This document shows positions 27,066 to 32,000 of a DNA stretch of 32,000 nt, in pieces (position 1 is the stretch's first letter; the number at the start of each line of letters is the position of its first letter). The notes under the pieces are model-generated. The model saw nothing but the letters and a program-made list of their open reading frames with translations. It was not told where the DNA came from and did no database searches. Position numbers and translations under genes: made by a program. Source of the stretch: Candidatus Pelagibacter ubique HTCC1062 (lineage in GTDB: Bacteria; Pseudomonadota; Alphaproteobacteria; Pelagibacterales; Pelagibacteraceae); NCBI RefSeq assembly GCF_000012345.1, contig NC_007205.1, forward strand, positions 1,170,001-1,202,000, in the 5' to 3' direction.

Positions 27066-27263
27066 ATGAAAAATTTTTACGTAGTTGCTGGTATTCATAA
27101 AGATCCAAATAAAATTGAAACTATCATTAAAGATACAGAAAAAAAATTTGGACCTTTTGAGGAGATTGAAGCTAATAATTTAGCTAAGAGTTTAATTCAA
27201 AAAAATATAGATGATTTTTATCATCGTGCTTGGATTGTTAAATCTAATAATTTAACCAAATAA
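27066..27263 (+). CDS. small hypothetical protein, DUF4170-like
   Basis: 65 aa. The pattern YVVAGI...GPFEE...A......[12 protein letters not shown] resembles the alphaproteobacterial DUF4170 family as I recall it. Confidence 0.4.
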   Translation: MKNFYVVAGIHKDPNKIETIIKDTEKKFGPFEEIEANNLAKSLIQKNIDDFYHRAWIVKSNNLTK

Positions 27264-27643
27264 AACCCAACAAACATAAAAATTACAAAGCTTACAGAAT
27301 TTAAATTTAATAAAGCCAGTGAGGCTATTGCAGGTCCTGGACATAATCCAGCTAAGCCCCAGCCTGCACCAAAAAGTGATGAACCTATAATTAATTTCTT
27401 ATTTAGTTCTTTATTATTTGAATAAGAAAATTTATCAGCAAAAATTGGTTTCTTATTATTTTTAAATAAATGAAAAAATGGTGAGGATATTATTAAAGCT
27501 CCAATCATAACAAATGCTAATGATGGGTCCCATTCTCCAAAAATATTTAAAAAACCTAAGACTTTAGCGGGATCTATCATCTGTGAAACAGTAAGACCTA
27601 TTCCAAAAATTATTCCACAAATTAAAGATATAATCTTATTCAT
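27221..27643 (-). CDS. YeeE/YedE-family sulfur-compound transport protein, second half-channel
   Basis: 140 aa, 4 [17 protein letters not shown] conserved-Cys motif. ATGA overlap with the preceding half. Confidence 0.75.
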
Positions 27644-28059
27644 ATTAAATTTTTTACCAAAACAGTTAAAATTCCAACAATCATAAATGTTACTGTTGCA
27701 ATAATTGATCTTAAAGAAAATCTTCCAATACCACTGATGCCGTGTCCACTAGTACAGCCACCACCTATTCTTGTACCAGCTCCAACCAATAAGCCTGCAA
27801 TTGCTAATAAATAAAATGAGTTTGAAATTGTGATATTGATTTCCTGTTGAGTAAATATTTTATAAACAATAGGTCCGATAATTAATCCAATTAAAAATAA
27901 AAAATTATCAAATCTATTATCTTTTGAAGTTAAAAAATTACTGGCAATTCCACTTATTCCAATTAATCGACCATTAAATACAAAAAAAATAATTACTGCT
28001 AAACCAATTAAGGATCCACCTAGAAATGCAGAGATTGGAGTAAAATTAACTATATTCAT
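27640..28059 (-). CDS. YeeE/YedE-family sulfur-compound transport protein, first half-channel
   Basis: 139 aa, 4 [16 protein letters not shown] motif characteristic of the YeeE/YedE family. Confidence 0.75.
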
Positions 28060-28497
28060 TTAACTTTGTAATACTGGAAAAGCAGGGTTTATATTTAAAA
28101 AAAGCTTTTGATATTCCATCTTTGTACATCTATTTTCAATATACTCAATATCATTACTCTCCACTAATTCTTTAGCATCAATGCTTCTAATTCCAAGTTG
28201 TAACCAAAGAACTTTAGCTCCAATTTTAACACTCTCTTCAGCATACTTGTTAGCTTCAGATGATGGTCTAAATACATCTACGATATCAATAGGTATATTA
28301 ATATCTTCAAGTTTTTCAAAAACCTCTTCTCCTAAAATCTTTTGACCTTTGGCACTTGGATTAACTGGAATAACTTTAAAACCATATTTTTGCATATACT
28401 TCATCACTATTGTTGATGGCTTTTTATCATCTTTACTAACACCCACCATCGCTATTGTTTTATACTTTGAGAGAATTTCTTTTATTTTATCGTTCAC
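28060..28497 (-). CDS. CoA-binding domain protein (YccU/YneT-like)
   Basis: IAMVGVSKDDKKPSTIVMKYMQKYGFKVIPVNP matches the CoA_binding_2 N-terminal Rossmann pattern. 145 aa. Confidence 0.8.
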   Translation of the reverse strand: MNDKIKEILSKYKTIAMVGVSKDDKKPSTIVMKYMQKYGFKVIPVNPSAKGQKILGEEVFEKLEDINIPIDIVDVFRPSSEANKYAEESVKIGAKVLWLQLGIRSIDAKELVESNDIEYIENRCTKMEYQKLFLNINPAFPVLQS

Positions 28498-29282
28498 TAC
28501 TTATGTTTCCACTTAGGTTTTCTCTTTTGTAGAAACGCTGATATGCCTTCTTTAGCATCCATTGCCATCATATTTTTAGTCATCATTTTACTAGTGTATG
28601 CGTAAGCTTTTCTCAATGGCATTTCTAATTGATTATAAAAAGTTTGTTTTCCAATTTTAATTGTAAGACTTGATTTTGAAGCAATAGTTTTAGCAACTTT
28701 TAATACTTCATTGTTTAATTTTGATTTAGAAAAATGATTATTAACTAGTCCAATTTCTTTTGCGTAATCTGCTTTAATAGGCTCTCCCGTTAACAGCATA
28801 TGCATCATTCTTTTTCTATTAACCTTTCTACTAACAGCAACCATCGGTGTGCTACAAAATAAGCCTATATTTACACCTGGTGTTGCAAAAATTGCATCAT
28901 TAGTACTGTAAGCTAGATCACAACTTGCAACTAACTGGCAACCTGCTGCAAATGCTGCTCCATGAACTTTTGCAATAACTGGCTTTTTTCCTTCAACTAT
29001 TTGAAGCATCAACTTTGAGCAAAGATTAAAAAGTTTTTGATATTTTTCTCTTTTCTTTAATCCACTTACTTCTTTTAAATTGTGACCCGCACTAAAACCT
29101 TTTCCAGACCCTTCGATAATTATTACCTTAATATTTTTGTTTTCATCTAGTTTTTTAAAAGCTTTAATTAAATCTCCTAAATTTTTTAATGAAAGAGCGT
29201 TATAGGTTTTTGGCTCATTAATGATGATTGAAGCAATATCTTTATTTAAAAGTTTAATTTTAATATTACTTAAGTTTGCCAT
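28497..29282 (-). CDS. enoyl-CoA hydratase/isomerase family protein (ECHDC3-like)
   Basis: GKGFSAGHNLKE, ATPGVNIGLFCSTPMVAVSR, LLTGEPI and C-terminal EGISAFLQKRKPKW are close to the ECHDC3 subfamily pattern. Confidence 0.85.
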   Translation of the reverse strand: MANLSNIKIKLLNKDIASIIINEPKTYNALSLKNLGDLIKAFKKLDENKNIKVIIIEGSGKGFSAGHNLKEVSGLKKREKYQKLFNLCSKLMLQIVEGKKPVIAKVHGAAFAAGCQLVASCDLAYSTNDAIFATPGVNIGLFCSTPMVAVSRKVNRKRMMHMLLTGEPIKADYAKEIGLVNNHFSKSKLNNEVLKVAKTIASKSSLTIKIGKQTFYNQLEMPLRKAYAYTSKMMTKNMMAMDAKEGISAFLQKRKPKWKHK

Positions 29283-29640
29283 CTTCTCTCATTTTGGCTC
29301 TAATTTTTGTTGCAGAAATTTGTTGAATTTCTTCTGACAAAACAACTTCTTCTATTTTGTAACCAACTCCTCTTCCATAACAAATATTAGTAATATTAGG
29401 AACCATCATTATTTTAAATCTTCCTTCAAATTCTGGGTTTAACTTTTCTTCAATATTTTTTTTAACTGTGTCAAAATCAAACGGATTATCGTCAACACCT
29501 TGAACATCTCTTATTTGAATGCAAACTTGACCTGTTTTTTTAATAATTTCTTGAAATAAAGCATAGTGACCATCATGAAATGGTTGCCATCTGCCAAGCA
29601 TTTGTGCTGTTGGTTTTTTATTATCCCATTCGTACGCCAT
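29266..29640 (-). CDS. minimal HxGH nucleotidyltransferase (cytidylyltransferase-like fold, NMNAT/PPAT/TagD-sized)
   Basis: GRWQPFHDGH (compare archaeal NMNAT GRFQPFHxGH) and C-terminal ISATKIR (ISxT..R). 124 aa from the ATG at 29640, which forms a TAATG overlap with the upstream stop. The track start at 29673 is less likely. Confidence 0.6.
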   Translation of the reverse strand: MAYEWDNKKPTAQMLGRWQPFHDGHYALFQEIIKKTGQVCIQIRDVQGVDDNPFDFDTVKKNIEEKLNPEFEGRFKIMMVPNITNICYGRGVGYKIEEVVLSEEIQQISATKIRAKMREDGKLK

Positions 29641-30047
29641 TATTTTATCTCCTTTATAATTATTGGTGCCCAATGTTTAGCATCTTGAGTTGTAACCTGA
29701 CAATCAAATTTTTCAGGCTTTACAAACATTTTGTTAGTATCGTCAAAACGTCCCTCTTTTATTGTATTTACCCAAACTATATAATCTGCAGGAAACAAGT
29801 TTCTTGCCTCCGGTGTTGGGCAAACAAAGTCTGCTACGACATAATTTCCATCATCTTTTAATTTTTTTGCAAAATCTGCCATTCTACTTGCTTGTCTTGT
29901 TCTGCCTTCTTTTGAAAAATCCCAATCATTAGCTTCTTTTCTAACTTCATCAGCATTAAGTCTTTTAGCATTTAGTAATGGAGCAATTTCATTTGCTAAA
30001 GTTGTTTTGCCAGATCCTGGAAGACCCATAATTAATATTATTTTCAT
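29640..30047 (-). CDS. small P-loop kinase with adenylylsulfate-kinase-like motifs
   Basis: Walker A GLPGSGKTT. LNADEVRK, DWDFSKEGRTRQASR and VADFVCPTPEAR align by eye with APS-kinase LDGDNVR, DLGFS..DR.EN.RR and AFISP....R. Only 135 aa. Confidence 0.55.
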   Translation of the reverse strand: MKIILIMGLPGSGKTTLANEIAPLLNAKRLNADEVRKEANDWDFSKEGRTRQASRMADFAKKLKDDGNYVVADFVCPTPEARNLFPADYIVWVNTIKEGRFDDTNKMFVKPEKFDCQVTTQDAKHWAPIIIKEIK

Positions 30048-30048
30048 T

Positions 30049-31242
30049 TTAAACTAAGTTTGTTGCAACCCATTTATGAAATTCATGTGTAGGGTTATCC
30101 ATTATCGGTGAAAAATTCCCACCATTATATACTGGTGAATTTCTACCTTCTTGCATACCCTCAATAGCTTTTATATCCTCAATCATTACTTCCTTCCAAA
30201 ATTCTGCATTTTTTTTTCTCATCTCAGTAAACTCAGAACCATTTGCACTATCATCACCAACATAATACATCGTTAAATGTTCTTTAGTCTCACTAAAAGA
30301 CTTAGGTTCTAACCAAAAAACATAAAAATGGTCTACATGAAGACCAATCATTACATTTGGAAATAAAGCGATATACTCAGCTTTTTTGAATAAGTCTTTA
30401 GGCCAATTTGGAAAATTATTGAAACTTTGATTTCCTTTAACAGGTTGATCATATTTATTTGTTCCTTGGCCAGCAAATCTATTTGGTAAACCTTGAATAT
30501 GGTAATGATCACTAATATTTGAAACTTTATTTAATTCAGGATGTATCCAAGGCAAGTGATAACTTTCACAGTAATTCTCTATTGCAAACTTCCAATTACA
30601 CTTAACATCAAGACTGAAGTATCCATGATCTTTTGAGTGCTTAAGTAATTTTTGATCTTCCTTAGATATAAATTTTGACCATCTTTCTTCGAGAGGCTTG
30701 ATATATTCATCAAACTCTAATTCATTACTATTTATATTGATAAATATTATATCCATCCAAATTTTGGTTTTAACCTCTTTTAAATTGCTCGATGATTTAT
30801 CGAATTTTTCTGTCTCATGAACATTTAGGCCTCCTATGTGAGGTGTCGCAACCAACTTTCCATCAAAATCGTAGGACCAGGAGTGGTATGGACATCTTAA
30901 GACATTTTTCAAAGCACAAGGCTCATCTAAAAGCTTGAAGCCTCTATGGCTGCAGACATTGTGAAATACCCTTATTTTTTTCTCTTTATCTCTTAAAATA
31001 ATAAGAGGGATGCCTAGTAAATTATAAGGTTGAGCATCTCCTACATTTGGCACAGAACTTCCAACGCCAATCACCGTCCATTTATCCTTGAAAATCCTCT
31101 CTCTTTCAATGCTTAGATAGTCAGAGCTAGTGTAGCACTCGTTTGGTAGGCCATGGGCTTTCTCGATGGGGTTCCCAACCACTCTAATTTTTTCCAAGTC
31201 CAAGATTTTCGAAAGTTGAAGATTTTTAAGATTTTCAGACAT
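30049..31242 (-). CDS. Rieske [2Fe-2S] non-haem-iron oxygenase, alpha-subunit type (choline-monooxygenase/GbcA-like class)
   Basis: CSH-x17-CPYH Rieske motif (CSHRGFKLLDEPCALKNVLRCPYHSW). Mononuclear iron motif ENYCESYHLPWIH. 397 aa. Confidence 0.85.
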   Translation of the reverse strand: MSENLKNLQLSKILDLEKIRVVGNPIEKAHGLPNECYTSSDYLSIERERIFKDKWTVIGVGSSVPNVGDAQPYNLLGIPLIILRDKEKKIRVFHNVCSHRGFKLLDEPCALKNVLRCPYHSWSYDFDGKLVATPHIGGLNVHETEKFDKSSSNLKEVKTKIWMDIIFININSNELEFDEYIKPLEERWSKFISKEDQKLLKHSKDHGYFSLDVKCNWKFAIENYCESYHLPWIHPELNKVSNISDHYHIQGLPNRFAGQGTNKYDQPVKGNQSFNNFPNWPKDLFKKAEYIALFPNVMIGLHVDHFYVFWLEPKSFSETKEHLTMYYVGDDSANGSEFTEMRKKNAEFWKEVMIEDIKAIEGMQEGRNSPVYNGGNFSPIMDNPTHEFHKWVATNLV

Positions 31243-31342: not shown

Positions 31343-32000
31343 ATGAATTTTTCACTTGAGGTTGGACCTCAAACAGATCTTAATACACTGCCTCCCGTTA
31401 AGGATGTTTATGTAACTATGCTTCCAGGAGGAGACTATAAAGAGACAGCTAACCAAACAGCGGCGTTAGTTAAAAAAGGATTTAATCCAGTTCCACATTT
31501 TCCAGCACGATCAATTACGGATGATGCTCAGCTTAAAGATTACATTGTAAGATGTAAAGATGTGGGTGCTAAACAAGCTTTAGTTATTGGAGGAAGTAGA
31601 GAGCCAGTTGGAAAATTTGATAGTTCAATTCAAATTTTAGAAACAGGATTTTTTGATGGAATTAAAATAGGAATAGCAGGACATCCAGAGGGAAGTCAGG
31701 ATATTTCTGATAAAGAATTAGAAAAGGCTATGATAGATAAAAAACCTTACGCCGACTATATAGTGACCCAGTGGTTATTAGAGAGTCAACCTATCGTAGA
31801 TTTCATTTCTAAGCAGTCAGTACCAGTGCATGTAGGAATTACTGGGCCAATGAAAATAACTAGCTTAATTAAATTTGCTAATATTGTCGGGGCGAAAAAT
31901 TCTATAAATTTTCTTAAGTCTAATTTTAGTAAGGCATTAGATTTATTGAAACCTAAAGACCCTAATGAATTAATTGGGAAAGTGAAAGAGTTTACTGGTA
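31343..32000 (+). CDS. methylenetetrahydrofolate-reductase-family protein (divergent), 3' end outside window
   Basis: Not in the ORF track because it runs off the window. ATG at 31343 is preceded by AGGA. The frame stays open to 32000. Segments SLEV.P, PHFPARS, ALVIGGS, IGIAGHPEG, IVTQW and VHVGITGP parallel the MetF TIM-barrel motifs in order. Confidence 0.6.
   Translation, partial: MNFSLEVGPQTDLNTLPPVKDVYVTMLPGGDYKETANQTAALVKKGFNPVPHFPARSITDDAQLKDYIVRCKDVGAKQALVIGGSREPVGKFDSSIQILETGFFDGIKIGIAGHPEGSQDISDKELEKAMIDKKPYADYIVTQWLLESQPIVDFISKQSVPVHVGITGPMKITSLIKFANIVGAKNSINFLKSNFSKALDLLKPKDPNELIGKVKEFTG

What the first reader, a model, noticed from the sequence alone, without database searches (positions are those of the whole stretch)
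29266..30047. Miniature P-loop kinase + HxGH nucleotidyltransferase pair joined by a TAATG junction
Seen: the 135-aa kinase has APS-kinase-like motifs: GLPGSGKTT, LNADEVR, DWDFSKEGRTRQASR and ADFVCPTPEAR. The 124-aa transferase has GRWQPFHDGH and ISATKIR. Its ATG at 29640 shares one base with the kinase stop. Established: kinase/nucleotidyltransferase pairs complete or salvage nucleotide-containing cofactors and donors. Examples are NadR-type NR kinase + NMNAT, CoaD + CoaE, ATP sulfurylase + APS kinase, and CDP-alcohol routes. TagD shows that cytidylyltransferases of about 125 aa are functional. Inference: both proteins are near the minimal size for their folds, and they sit between an oxygenase and CoA-handling genes. 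A CoA-like, NAD-like or sulfonucleotide product are all open possibilities, and I cannot tell them apart by eye.
Basis: partly seen in the sequence, partly recalled or inferred. Interest (0 to 1): 0.6.

Follow-up and report, generated by a model that had tools for sequence, protein, structure and literature searches.

The report
Miniature sulfate-activating gene pair in SAR11
Two tiny overlapping genes in this SAR11-type ocean bacterium most likely encode a cut-down APS kinase and an undescribed, very small ATP sulfurylase, which would supply the "activated sulfate" step that papers say these very abundant bacteria lack.

Summary
A 135-aa P-loop kinase (29640-30047, minus strand) and a 124-aa HxGH nucleotidyltransferase, here NT (29266-29640, minus strand), overlap in TAATG.

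- The kinase is a truncated APS kinase by sequence and by predicted fold.
- Relatives of the NT are fused to a full APS kinase (CysC) in marine bacteria and to the mini-kinase in phages.
- In the viral contigs examined, the commonest neighbour of the pair is a sulfotransferase.
- In other SAR11 lineages the NT lies directly beside aprMBA (APS reductase), where sat lies in Allochromatium. In one genus it does so without any kinase.
- This genome has AprA, two sulfotransferases and a CysQ-like phosphatase, but no Sat, CysD or other APS kinase. NadD, CoaD and RibF are all present.

Best reading (about 0.7): the NT is a new minimal ATP sulfurylase and the pair is a minimal PAPS synthase. No enzyme activity has been measured, and the NT's closest sequence and fold relatives are NMN adenylyltransferases.

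The link to neighbouring CoA genes holds only within this genus. I found no paper describing the family. Earlier AI notes of this scan reached the same reading on other DNA, and they are not independent evidence.

The parts
29640..30047 (-). Mini APS-kinase-like P-loop kinase, 135 aa. By alignment to CysC it has Walker A at G8-T16, then D33, R36, F44, R49 and the lid Phe F101.
   Evidence: Pfam APS_kinase scores 45.5 bits (cut-off 21.1) but covers only profile positions 4-90 of 152. TIGR00455 scores 36.5, below its 138.7 cut-off. The AF2 model has pLDDT 97.6. Its best TM-scores are to APS kinases, 0.85-0.86 (7yq1_C, 2ofx_A).
29266..29640 (-). 124-aa HxGH nucleotidyltransferase, the candidate minimal ATP sulfurylase. 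Family-conserved residues are G16, R17, Q19, P20, H22, H25, R44, N52, P53, P81-I83, Y88-G89-R90-x-V-G-Y94 and I108-S-x-T-x-x-R114.
   Evidence: CTP_transf_like scores 19 bits, below its cut-off of 21. NCBIfam gives only weak NadM/archaeal NMNAT and PPAT hits. Conserved columns come from 60 sequences. The AF2 model has pLDDT 93.7.
29638..29642 (-). TAATG junction: the kinase stop and the NT start share base 29640.
   Evidence: Sequence read.
29649..29654 (-). AAGGAG Shine-Dalgarno for the NT, inside the 3' end of the kinase gene, 8 nt before the ATG.
   Evidence: Sequence read.
30049..31242 (-). Context only: Rieske oxygenase alpha subunit (GbcA-like), upstream in the same gene string.
   Evidence: Rieske plus Ring_hydroxyl_A domains. 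This neighbour is seen in the same-genus loci only.
27221..29282 (-). Context only: enoyl-CoA hydratase (28497-29282), CoA-binding protein (28060-28497) and two half-size YeeE/YedE-type sulfur-transport proteins (27640-28059 and 27221-27643), all downstream.
   Evidence: Pfam ECH_1 and CoA_binding_2; Sulf_transp and DUF6691. These neighbours are absent beside the pair in the other SAR11 lineages examined.

Best explanation
The pair is a minimal sulfate-activation module. Inferred from context: the 124-aa NT is a previously unrecognised, very small ATP sulfurylase that interconverts ATP + sulfate and APS + PPi. It would use the HxGH and ISxTxxR motifs that hold the nucleotide phosphates throughout this superfamily. 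The family-invariant R17/Q19, R44 and R90 are candidate anion ligands. Inferred from homology: the 135-aa protein is an APS kinase that has lost part of its lid helix and phosphorylates the 3'-OH of APS to give PAPS. In Pelagibacter the NT would take the place of the missing sat gene beside AprBA: sulfite + AMP gives APS, and APS + PPi gives sulfate + ATP. The kinase would divert APS to PAPS for the genome's two sulfotransferases, with a CysQ-like enzyme removing PAP. Phages carry the same pair, often fused and next to their own sulfotransferase, as a self-contained PAPS supply. The homology, fusions, gene neighbourhoods and phyletic patterns are shown here. The substrates, reaction direction and residue roles are inferred.
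For: 1. The kinase belongs to the APS kinase family. It scores 45.5 bits on Pfam. A profile of the mini-kinases hits the PAPSS1 APS-kinase domain at 63 bits over positions 4-89. The fold has TM 0.85-0.86 to APS kinases. The D..R, F-S and R residues align with CysC.
2. Rosetta-stone fusions exist. More than 100 clusters of about 310-aa marine proteins join this NT to an APS kinase domain (precomputed Pfam PF01583). The one scanned against NCBIfam, P0234, is a bona fide CysC (TIGR00455 233.6 bits, cut-off 138.7). One fusion is in an OCS116 single-cell genome. Fusions of the mini-kinase to the NT, about 260 aa, are common.
3. In 80 IMG/VR loci the commonest neighbour family is a sulfotransferase (Sulfotransfer_3 39.4 bits, Sulfotransfer_1 32.3 bits, both above cut-off). 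It occurs in 27 loci and lies immediately upstream in 21.
4. In all 19 NT-bearing genomes of the second SAR11 family, the NT lies about 360 bp from aprA. In 4 genomes of genus g5 it is the gene just before aprM-aprB-aprA on the same strand. This matches sat-aprMBA of Allochromatium (PMC3779200).
5. Three of these four g5 genomes have no APS-kinase match; the fourth has only a weak one (19.8 bits, below cut-off). None of the 8 g5 genomes sampled has a Sulfotransfer_1 match. The NT therefore goes with APS reductase by itself.
6. Across genera, NT and AprA show nearly the same pattern. CysD (7 genomes) and NT (122 genomes) never co-occur.
7. This genome has no Sat, no CysD and no other APS kinase. 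It does have AprA, two full Sulfotransfer_1 proteins and a CysQ-like protein. PMC5069961 states that sat and cysDNC are absent.
Against: No activity has been measured. The NT's nearest sequence and fold relatives are NadM/archaeal NMN adenylyltransferases and PPAT. Sat-type ATP sulfurylase ranks lower (Z 8.5 against 10.6), and the NT lacks the QxRNPxHxxH motif. Six of the seven Sat-bearing SAR11 genomes also carry the NT, so the two are not strictly alternatives. In this genus the pair sits in a Rieske/enoyl-CoA hydratase/CoA-binding operon rather than beside apr. Xylella phage Sano has a NADAR gene next to the fusion. Related genomes are not independent samples, and some IMG/VR contigs may be cellular islands.
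Confidence: 0.7

Rival explanations
1. The NT acts in APS metabolism but is not a classical ATP sulfurylase. It could be an APS:phosphate adenylyltransferase (ADP sulfurylase), an enzyme adenylylating a different anion such as sulfite, selenate, thiosulfate or a phosphonate, or a regulatory APS-binding protein. The kinase would then phosphorylate that product.
For: All the context evidence links the NT to APS-handling enzymes, not to the sulfate + ATP reaction itself. YeeE/YedE-type sulfur transporters lie in the same gene string here.
Against: Enzymes of the HxGH superfamily transfer a nucleotidyl group from an NTP with PPi as leaving group (established knowledge). A bona fide CysC fusion partner and PAPS-dependent sulfotransferases require APS itself. 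Known APS:phosphate adenylyltransferases belong to a different fold (my knowledge, not tested).
Confidence: 0.15
2. The pair is a split NadR-like module: a nicotinamide riboside kinase plus an NMN adenylyltransferase that salvages NAD.
For: The NT's best sequence and fold hits are NadM/archaeal NMNAT, including the GRxQPFHxGH and NPF motifs. The kinase weakly hits the NadR kinase part (TIGR01526, 21.3 bits). A NADAR gene lies next to the fusion in phage Sano.
Against: All NMNAT and NadR scores are far below their cut-offs (22-27 bits against 127-341). The kinase is APS-kinase-like, not NadR-kinase-like. No NAD gene recurs beside the pair in 80 viral loci. The genome has its own NadD above cut-off. 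The fusion to a true CysC and the operon with aprMBA have no NAD logic.
Confidence: 0.05
3. The pair makes a CoA-like cofactor: a PPAT-like adenylyl transfer followed by DPCK-like 3'-phosphorylation, serving the neighbouring enoyl-CoA hydratase and CoA-binding genes.
For: Some JGI records name the NT phosphopantetheine adenylyltransferase. Archaeal PPAT gives a weak full-length hit (21.3 bits). PPAT is the top VIA match (Z 10.6). The CoA genes lie downstream.
Against: CoaD is present above its cut-off. The CoA neighbours are seen only in this genus. They are absent among the annotated neighbour families of the viral loci and beside the fusion loci examined.
Confidence: 0.03

Closest known systems
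Sat-type homo-oligomeric ATP sulfurylase (PF01747), e.g. Allochromatium vinosum Sat in the sat-aprMBA operon (PMC3779200) and Thermus thermophilus 1v47
   Same: It belongs to the same HxGH nucleotidyltransferase superfamily fold (Z 8.5, 116 residues aligned). In SAR11 genus g5 the NT holds the same genomic position, just upstream of aprM-aprB-aprA. Relatives show the same kind of fusion partner, an APS kinase.
   Different: The NT has 124 aa against about 350-400. It has no PUA-like N-terminal domain, no PF01747 match and no QxRNPxHxxH motif. By sequence it is closer to NadM-type NMNAT.
Bifunctional PAPS synthases and Sat-CysC fusions (human PAPSS1, 1x6v; Aquifex aeolicus, 2gks; Penicillium, 1i2d)
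   Same: A two-step adenylylate-then-phosphorylate logic on one polypeptide or on a translationally coupled pair. The kinase half is homologous.
   Different: Both halves are much smaller. The sulfurylase half belongs to another family. Both domain orders occur: kinase-NT in phages, NT-CysC in marine bacteria.
APS kinase CysC (PF01583, TIGR00455)
   Same: Walker A, the D..R motif, the F-S..R block and the (I/V)-x-P strand align. The fold matches with TM 0.85-0.86.
   Different: The window protein has 135 aa against about 180-200. Only profile positions 4-90 of 152 match. It scores below the TIGR00455 cut-off, has Ser replaced by Cys in the ISP motif, and its lid helix is shortened.
NadM / archaeal NMN adenylyltransferase (TIGR01527; 1f9a, 1ej2)
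   Same: This is the closest family by sequence and fold. It shares the GRxQPFHxGH, NPF and SxTxxR motifs. Foldseek gives TMq 0.70 and VIA gives Z 10.4.
   Different: The NT scores 22 bits against a cut-off of 181. It is about 45 residues shorter, and only 113 of 164 residues align. It carries extra family-invariant arginines (R44, R90). No NAD-related gene context was seen.

Membership tests
APS kinase (CysC), PF01583 / TIGR00455 | Score at or above the curated cut-offs | tested here: inconclusive
   Pfam scores 45.5 bits against a cut-off of 21.1, so it passes, but over profile positions 4-90 of 152 only. The TIGR00455 equivalog scores 36.5 against 138.7, so it fails.
APS kinase (CysC), PF01583 / TIGR00455 | Walker A plus the APS-holding residues: Asp and Arg of LDGDxxR, and Phe and Arg of the GFSxxDRxEN block | tested here: met
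   The alignments to 2yvu and PAPSS1 pair GLPGSGKTT, D33, R36, F44-S45 and R49 with the CysC residues. The first Asp of LDGD is Asn here. The roles of these residues are from my knowledge of CysC structures.
APS kinase (CysC), PF01583 / TIGR00455 | Full C-terminal half with the lid helix (RDPKGLYKKAR...FTGID) | tested here: not met
   No profile match beyond position 90. The protein has 135 aa against about 180-200. Only a short RFxDTN..F.xPE stretch resembles the end of the lid.
APS kinase (CysC), PF01583 / TIGR00455 | APS kinase fold | tested here: met
   The model has pLDDT 97.6. TMq is 0.85 to 7yq1_C and 0.86 to 2ofx_A. Gluconate kinase ranks first by E-value but with a lower TM of 0.73.
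Sat-type ATP sulfurylase (PF01747) | Match to PF01747 and the QxRNPxHxxH motif | tested here: not met
   The NT has no PF01747 hit, and none was found anywhere in the genome. The motif here reads GRWQPFHDGH.
Sat-type ATP sulfurylase (PF01747) | Shared catalytic-domain fold | tested here: inconclusive
   1v47_B gives Z 8.5 with 116 residues aligned. This is below PPAT (10.6) and NMNAT (10.4).
Sat-type ATP sulfurylase (PF01747) | Functional context: operon with aprMBA, and fusion or adjacency to APS kinase | tested here: met
   NT-aprM-aprB-aprA lie on one strand in g5. The NT is about 360 bp from aprA in 19 genomes of the second family. NT-CysC fusions exist.
Sat-type ATP sulfurylase (PF01747) | ATP + sulfate <-> APS + PPi activity | not testable with these tools
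   Needs an enzyme assay.
NadM / archaeal NMN adenylyltransferase (TIGR01527, PRK01153) | Score at or above the curated cut-off, over the full length | tested here: not met
   27.0 bits against 127 and 22.2 against 181.2, covering residues 14-55 only.
NadM / archaeal NMN adenylyltransferase (TIGR01527, PRK01153) | GRxQPxHxGH and SxTxxR motifs | tested here: met
   GRWQPFHDGH and ISATKIR are present.
NadM / archaeal NMN adenylyltransferase (TIGR01527, PRK01153) | Association with NAD salvage genes (NadV, Nudix, PnuC) | tested here: not met
   None appears among the recurrent neighbours in 80 viral loci or in the SAR11 loci. Only a NADAR gene was seen, in phage Sano.
Phosphopantetheine adenylyltransferase (TIGR01510 / PRK00777) | Score at or above the curated cut-off | tested here: not met
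   PRK00777 scores 21.3 bits against 104. The genome's true CoaD scores 174.8 against 103.3.

The most novel reading that the evidence does not exclude
The 124-aa protein founds a third, minimal family of ATP sulfurylase, besides Sat and CysDN. It would be derived from NadM-like adenylyltransferases and would be the missing sat of SAR11. It would complete AprBA-based sulfite oxidation with ATP gain and, with the mini APS kinase, supply PAPS for sulfation by the genome's sulfotransferases. Marine and soil phages would spread it as a portable PAPS cassette together with sulfotransferases.
Probability: 0.65. Interest if true: 0.85.

Novelty: new variant of a known kind. Interest (0 to 1): 0.78.

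Why it matters
[quoted passage not shown] Papers state that it lacks sat and cysDNC (PMC5069961). That leaves two gaps. The APS made by its highly conserved AprBA has no known exit. Its many sulfotransferases, which a preprint on Pelagibacter genomes describes among surface-polysaccharide genes of the hypervariable region that build structures used by phages as receptors, have no known PAPS source.

A minimal ATP sulfurylase plus APS kinase would close both gaps. It would add ATP-yielding sulfite oxidation to SAR11 energy budgets. It would also correct genome-based sulfur-cycle predictions that look only for Sat or CysDN. At least 595 viral contigs carry the family, so it would also define a widespread phage auxiliary module for sulfation. 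At 124 aa it would be the smallest sulfate-activating enzyme known, which makes it useful for enzymology and for making PAPS.

Tried and rejected
- NAD salvage (split NadR) was my first guess. I dropped it after finding the CysC fusions, the sulfotransferase and apr contexts, and a NadD above cut-off.
- A CoA-like product was rejected. CoaD is present, and the CoA neighbours are confined to one genus.
- Foldseek against the PDB gave no match at E <= 0.001 for the NT. VIA-align showed every HxGH family within about 2 Z units. The fold therefore cannot tell the substrate.
- PHROGs gave only the label "kinase" for phrog_10255.
- Six literature searches plus one search found no description of this family or of a PAPS source in SAR11.
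- hhalign of other recurrent phage neighbours against the sulfotransferase cluster found one further divergent sulfotransferase group, c67 (90.8% probability). It found nothing for c20, c16, c49 or c14.
- I could not inspect model coordinates, so the position of R44 and R90 relative to the active site remains untested.
- The look-up of encoding contigs for P0215 gave only a 1.3-kb contig with no context.
Full report
**The observation**

The window is bases 1170001-1202000 of a single-contig genome of 1,308,759 bp. That size and the gene content match Candidatus Pelagibacter ubique HTCC1062; the identification rests on my memory of the genome size.

The first is a 135-aa P-loop protein at 29640-30047. 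The second is a 124-aa protein at 29266-29640. The kinase stop TAA and the second gene's ATG share base 29640, giving TAATG. An AAGGAG Shine-Dalgarno lies 8 nt before that ATG, inside the kinase gene. All quoted motifs are present. The 124-aa start is preferred over a longer TTG frame because most of the close homologues listed are 124 aa.

**What the two proteins are by homology**

The kinase passes the Pfam APS_kinase cut-off (45.5 bits against 21.1), but only over the first 90 of 152 profile positions. It fails the CysC equivalog model (36.5 against 138.7). Its best solved relative by sequence is an APS kinase, 2yvu, with an E-value of 1.8e-8. The Walker A loop, the D..R motif, the F-S..R block and the (V/I)-x-P strand are all aligned. 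A profile of the mini-kinases matches the PAPSS1 APS-kinase domain at 63 bits. The AlphaFold model has pLDDT 97.6. It superposes best on APS kinases, with TMq 0.85-0.86 to 7yq1_C and 2ofx_A. I read it as an APS kinase with a shortened lid.

The NT is just below the Pfam CTP_transf_like cut-off (19 against 21). It has only weak hits to NadM/archaeal NMN adenylyltransferase over its N-terminal third and to archaeal PPAT. Its model has pLDDT 93.7 and shows an HxGH nucleotidyltransferase fold. Foldseek's best match is archaeal NMNAT 1ej2 (E 2e-3, TMq 0.70). VIA-align gives PPAT Z 10.6, M. jannaschii NMNAT Z 10.4, NadM Z 10.1 and Thermus ATP sulfurylase with APS Z 8.5. The fold alone does not reveal the substrate.

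In 60 family members the invariant or nearly invariant residues include the usual G-R-x-Q-P-x-H-x-G-H and I-S-x-T-x-x-R motifs. They also include R44 and a Y-G-R-x-V-G-Y motif containing R90.

**The pairing is conserved, and often the two are fused**

PHROG 10255, a 230-position profile, covers both proteins end to end. In Xylella phages Sano and Salvo, Stenotrophomonas phages and others, the two are one protein of about 245 aa. A search of 1.84 billion cluster representatives found 1441 relatives of the NT. Many are kinase-NT fusions of about 260 aa. In IMG/VR at least 595 contigs carry the NT. In the 80 best loci the kinase is fused to it or lies just upstream in about 75.

**First line of evidence for a sulfur role: fusion to a true CysC**

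P0234 carries this NT at the N-terminus, 41-45% identical to the window's protein. It is followed by a full-length APS kinase that passes the CysC equivalog model (TIGR00455 233.6 bits against 138.7). More than 100 further clusters of about 310-aa marine proteins show the same layout, with a precomputed Pfam APS_kinase domain. One copy is in an OCS116-cluster single-cell genome. On long contigs these fusions lie near TPR-sulfotransferase proteins and giant RTX-like proteins.

**Second line: sulfotransferases in the viral loci**

I clustered the neighbours in the 80 viral loci. The commonest family, present in 27 loci, is a sulfotransferase (Sulfotransfer_3 39.4 bits against 27; Sulfotransfer_1 32.3 against 22). 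It lies immediately upstream of the kinase in 21 loci. A further three loci carry a divergent sulfotransferase (hhalign probability 90.8%).

Other recurrent neighbours are 2OG-Fe(II) oxygenases and an NT5C-like HAD phosphatase. No NAD or CoA gene recurs among the neighbour families I could annotate. These loci fall into a few related architectures, so they are not 80 independent observations. Some IMG/VR contigs could also be cellular islands.

**Third line: APS reductase**

I sampled 151 SAR11-order genomes. One of them, G082, is unpublished and marked so by the tool. It is positive for the NT, Sulfotransfer_1 and AprA, and leaving it out lowers each of those three counts by one.

| Gene or family | Genomes with a match (of 151) |
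|---|---|
| NT | 122 |
| AprA | 124 |
| Sulfotransfer_1 | 126 |
| Sat | 7 |
| CysD | 7 |

By genus, NT and AprA have almost the same pattern.

| Genus | NT | AprA |
|---|---|---|
| g1 | 95 of 101 | 100 of 101 |
| g2, g3, g4, g7, g9 | none | none |
| g5 | 6 of 8 | 4 of 8 |
| g6 | 1 of 1 | 0 of 1 |
| g8 | 17 of 23 | 17 of 23 |
| g10 | 2 of 2 | 2 of 2 |

The two genes are also physically linked. In all 19 NT-bearing genomes of the second family (g8, g10), the NT ends about 360 bp from aprA. The order there is kinase, NT, then convergently a 116-aa protein, aprA, aprB and aprM.

In four g5 genomes the order on one strand is TenA-like, NT, aprM (263 aa, at least four hydrophobic segments, no Pfam match), aprB, aprA, the 116-aa protein and TauE/SafE. 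That is the place sat holds in the co-transcribed sat-aprMBA operon of Allochromatium vinosum (PMC3779200). Three of these four g5 genomes have no APS-kinase-like gene; the fourth has only a weak match of 19.8 bits, below cut-off. No g5 genome sampled has a Sulfotransfer_1 match. So the NT goes with APS reductase on its own, while the kinase goes with the sulfotransferases.

All seven CysD-bearing genomes lack the NT, and none of the 122 NT-bearing genomes has CysD. Sat does co-occur with the NT, in six genomes. Related genomes are not independent, so I give no statistic.

**Fourth line: the gap in this genome**

- There is no PF01747 match, no CysD match, and no APS-kinase match other than this gene.
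- AprA is present at 989.9 bits, and aprM, aprB and the 116-aa gene lie around it.
- Two full-length Sulfotransfer_1 proteins are present (78.4 and 74.2 bits).
- A CysQ-like phosphatase scores 188.7 bits, below its equivalog cut-off of 228.8.
- NadD, CoaD and RibF are each present above their curated cut-offs. The ordinary NAD, CoA and FAD adenylyltransferase roles are therefore filled.

Smith et al. 2016 (PMC5069961) state that cysDNCHIJ and sat are absent and that AprBA is thought to detoxify sulfite. [quoted passage not shown] A 2026 preprint (doi 10.64898/2026.04.03.716430) lists sulfotransferases among the surface-polysaccharide genes that dominate the hypervariable region. None of the papers I found names a source of PAPS or a fate for APS in SAR11.

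**Most likely mechanism**

Inferred: the NT catalyses ATP + sulfate <-> APS + PPi. In the oxidative direction it releases sulfate and ATP from the APS made by AprBA. In the other direction it feeds the kinase, together with the APS that AprBA makes. The kinase makes PAPS for the sulfotransferases, and PAP is then removed by the CysQ-like enzyme.

Translational coupling here, and fusion elsewhere, fit the need to pull the unfavourable sulfurylase equilibrium. This is the same logic as in PAPS synthases. What is shown is the homology, the fusions, the neighbourhoods and the phyletic patterns. What is not shown is any activity, the reaction direction in vivo, or the roles of R17, Q19, R44 and R90.

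**The local operon**

In the 11 closest same-genus genomes the pair keeps its Rieske oxygenase, enoyl-CoA hydratase and CoA-binding neighbours. Those neighbours are absent beside the pair in the other lineages examined. They say little about the pair's chemistry. The two half-size YeeE/YedE sulfur-transport proteins at the end of the string may be relevant, but I did not test this.

**Rivals**

- An APS-related but non-classical reaction, or another anion: about 0.15.
- NadR-like NAD salvage: about 0.05.
- A CoA-like product: about 0.03.

**Novelty**

I found no paper on this family in seven searches. Earlier AI notes of this scan, on other SAR11, phage and archaeal DNA, reached the same reading. 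I saw them only after my own evidence was in hand, and they are not independent support. I class the finding as a new variant of a known kind: a known reaction and pathway logic, carried out by an undescribed minimal enzyme family.

Noticed in passing
own genome, L031:3346-3696; also L207:5168-5518 (-) and L208:7341-7691: A conserved 116-aa soluble protein with no Pfam match follows aprA in all three SAR11 lineages examined (61-72% identity between lineages). It may be an unrecognised partner of AprBA.
   Followed up: partly
L208:3033-8834 (SAR11 genus g5): A one-strand gene string reads TenA/PQQC-like, NT, aprM, aprB, aprA, 116-aa protein, TauE/SafE sulfite exporter. It carries no kinase.
   Followed up: partly
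viral loci L051, L053, L054, L067, L075, L107 and others: A recurrent phage cassette has two unknown genes (c26, c14), then sulfotransferase, kinase and NT, then three different 2OG-Fe(II) oxygenases and another unknown gene (c3). The acceptor that is sulfated and hydroxylated is unknown.
   Followed up: partly
viral loci L035-L045: A second phage architecture has a RecA-like gene, two small unknown genes and an NT5C-like HAD phosphatase directly before a fused kinase-NT. The phosphatase could remove PAP, but that was not tested.
   Followed up: no
L023 and L026 (marine contigs with the NT-CysC fusion); L127 (OCS116 SAG): On the marine contigs L023 and L026 the NT-CysC fusion lies between a PTR2-type MFS transporter and a Pfam-less protein of about 660 aa. 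It is followed by a 1660-2050-aa RTX-like protein and by TPR proteins carrying sulfotransferase or 2OG-oxygenase domains. L127 shows ORFs of matching sizes (492, 659 and 1660 aa), of which only the 659-aa one was scanned and gave no Pfam match.
   Followed up: no
window 31343-32000 (+), running on beyond the window: The divergent MetF-like gene and the next aminomethyltransferase-like gene probably correspond to SAR11_1264 and SAR11_1265. Both are listed among the genes whose expression changed significantly under sulfur limitation in PMC5069961. The locus-tag assignment is my inference.
   Followed up: no
G015:C1:283931-284301 and G132:C8:7199-7540: In one Pelagibacter genome the NT matches in two overlapping pieces, which suggests a frameshift. 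In one g5 genome a 43%-identical copy has an internal TAA. These may be decaying copies.
   Followed up: no
L001:3963-5002 (Xylella phage Sano gp33, gp34): Directly before the phage's kinase-NT fusion lie a protein with a weak Sulfotransfer_4 hit (20.7 bits, below its cut-off) and a NADAR-domain protein (92 bits).
   Followed up: partly
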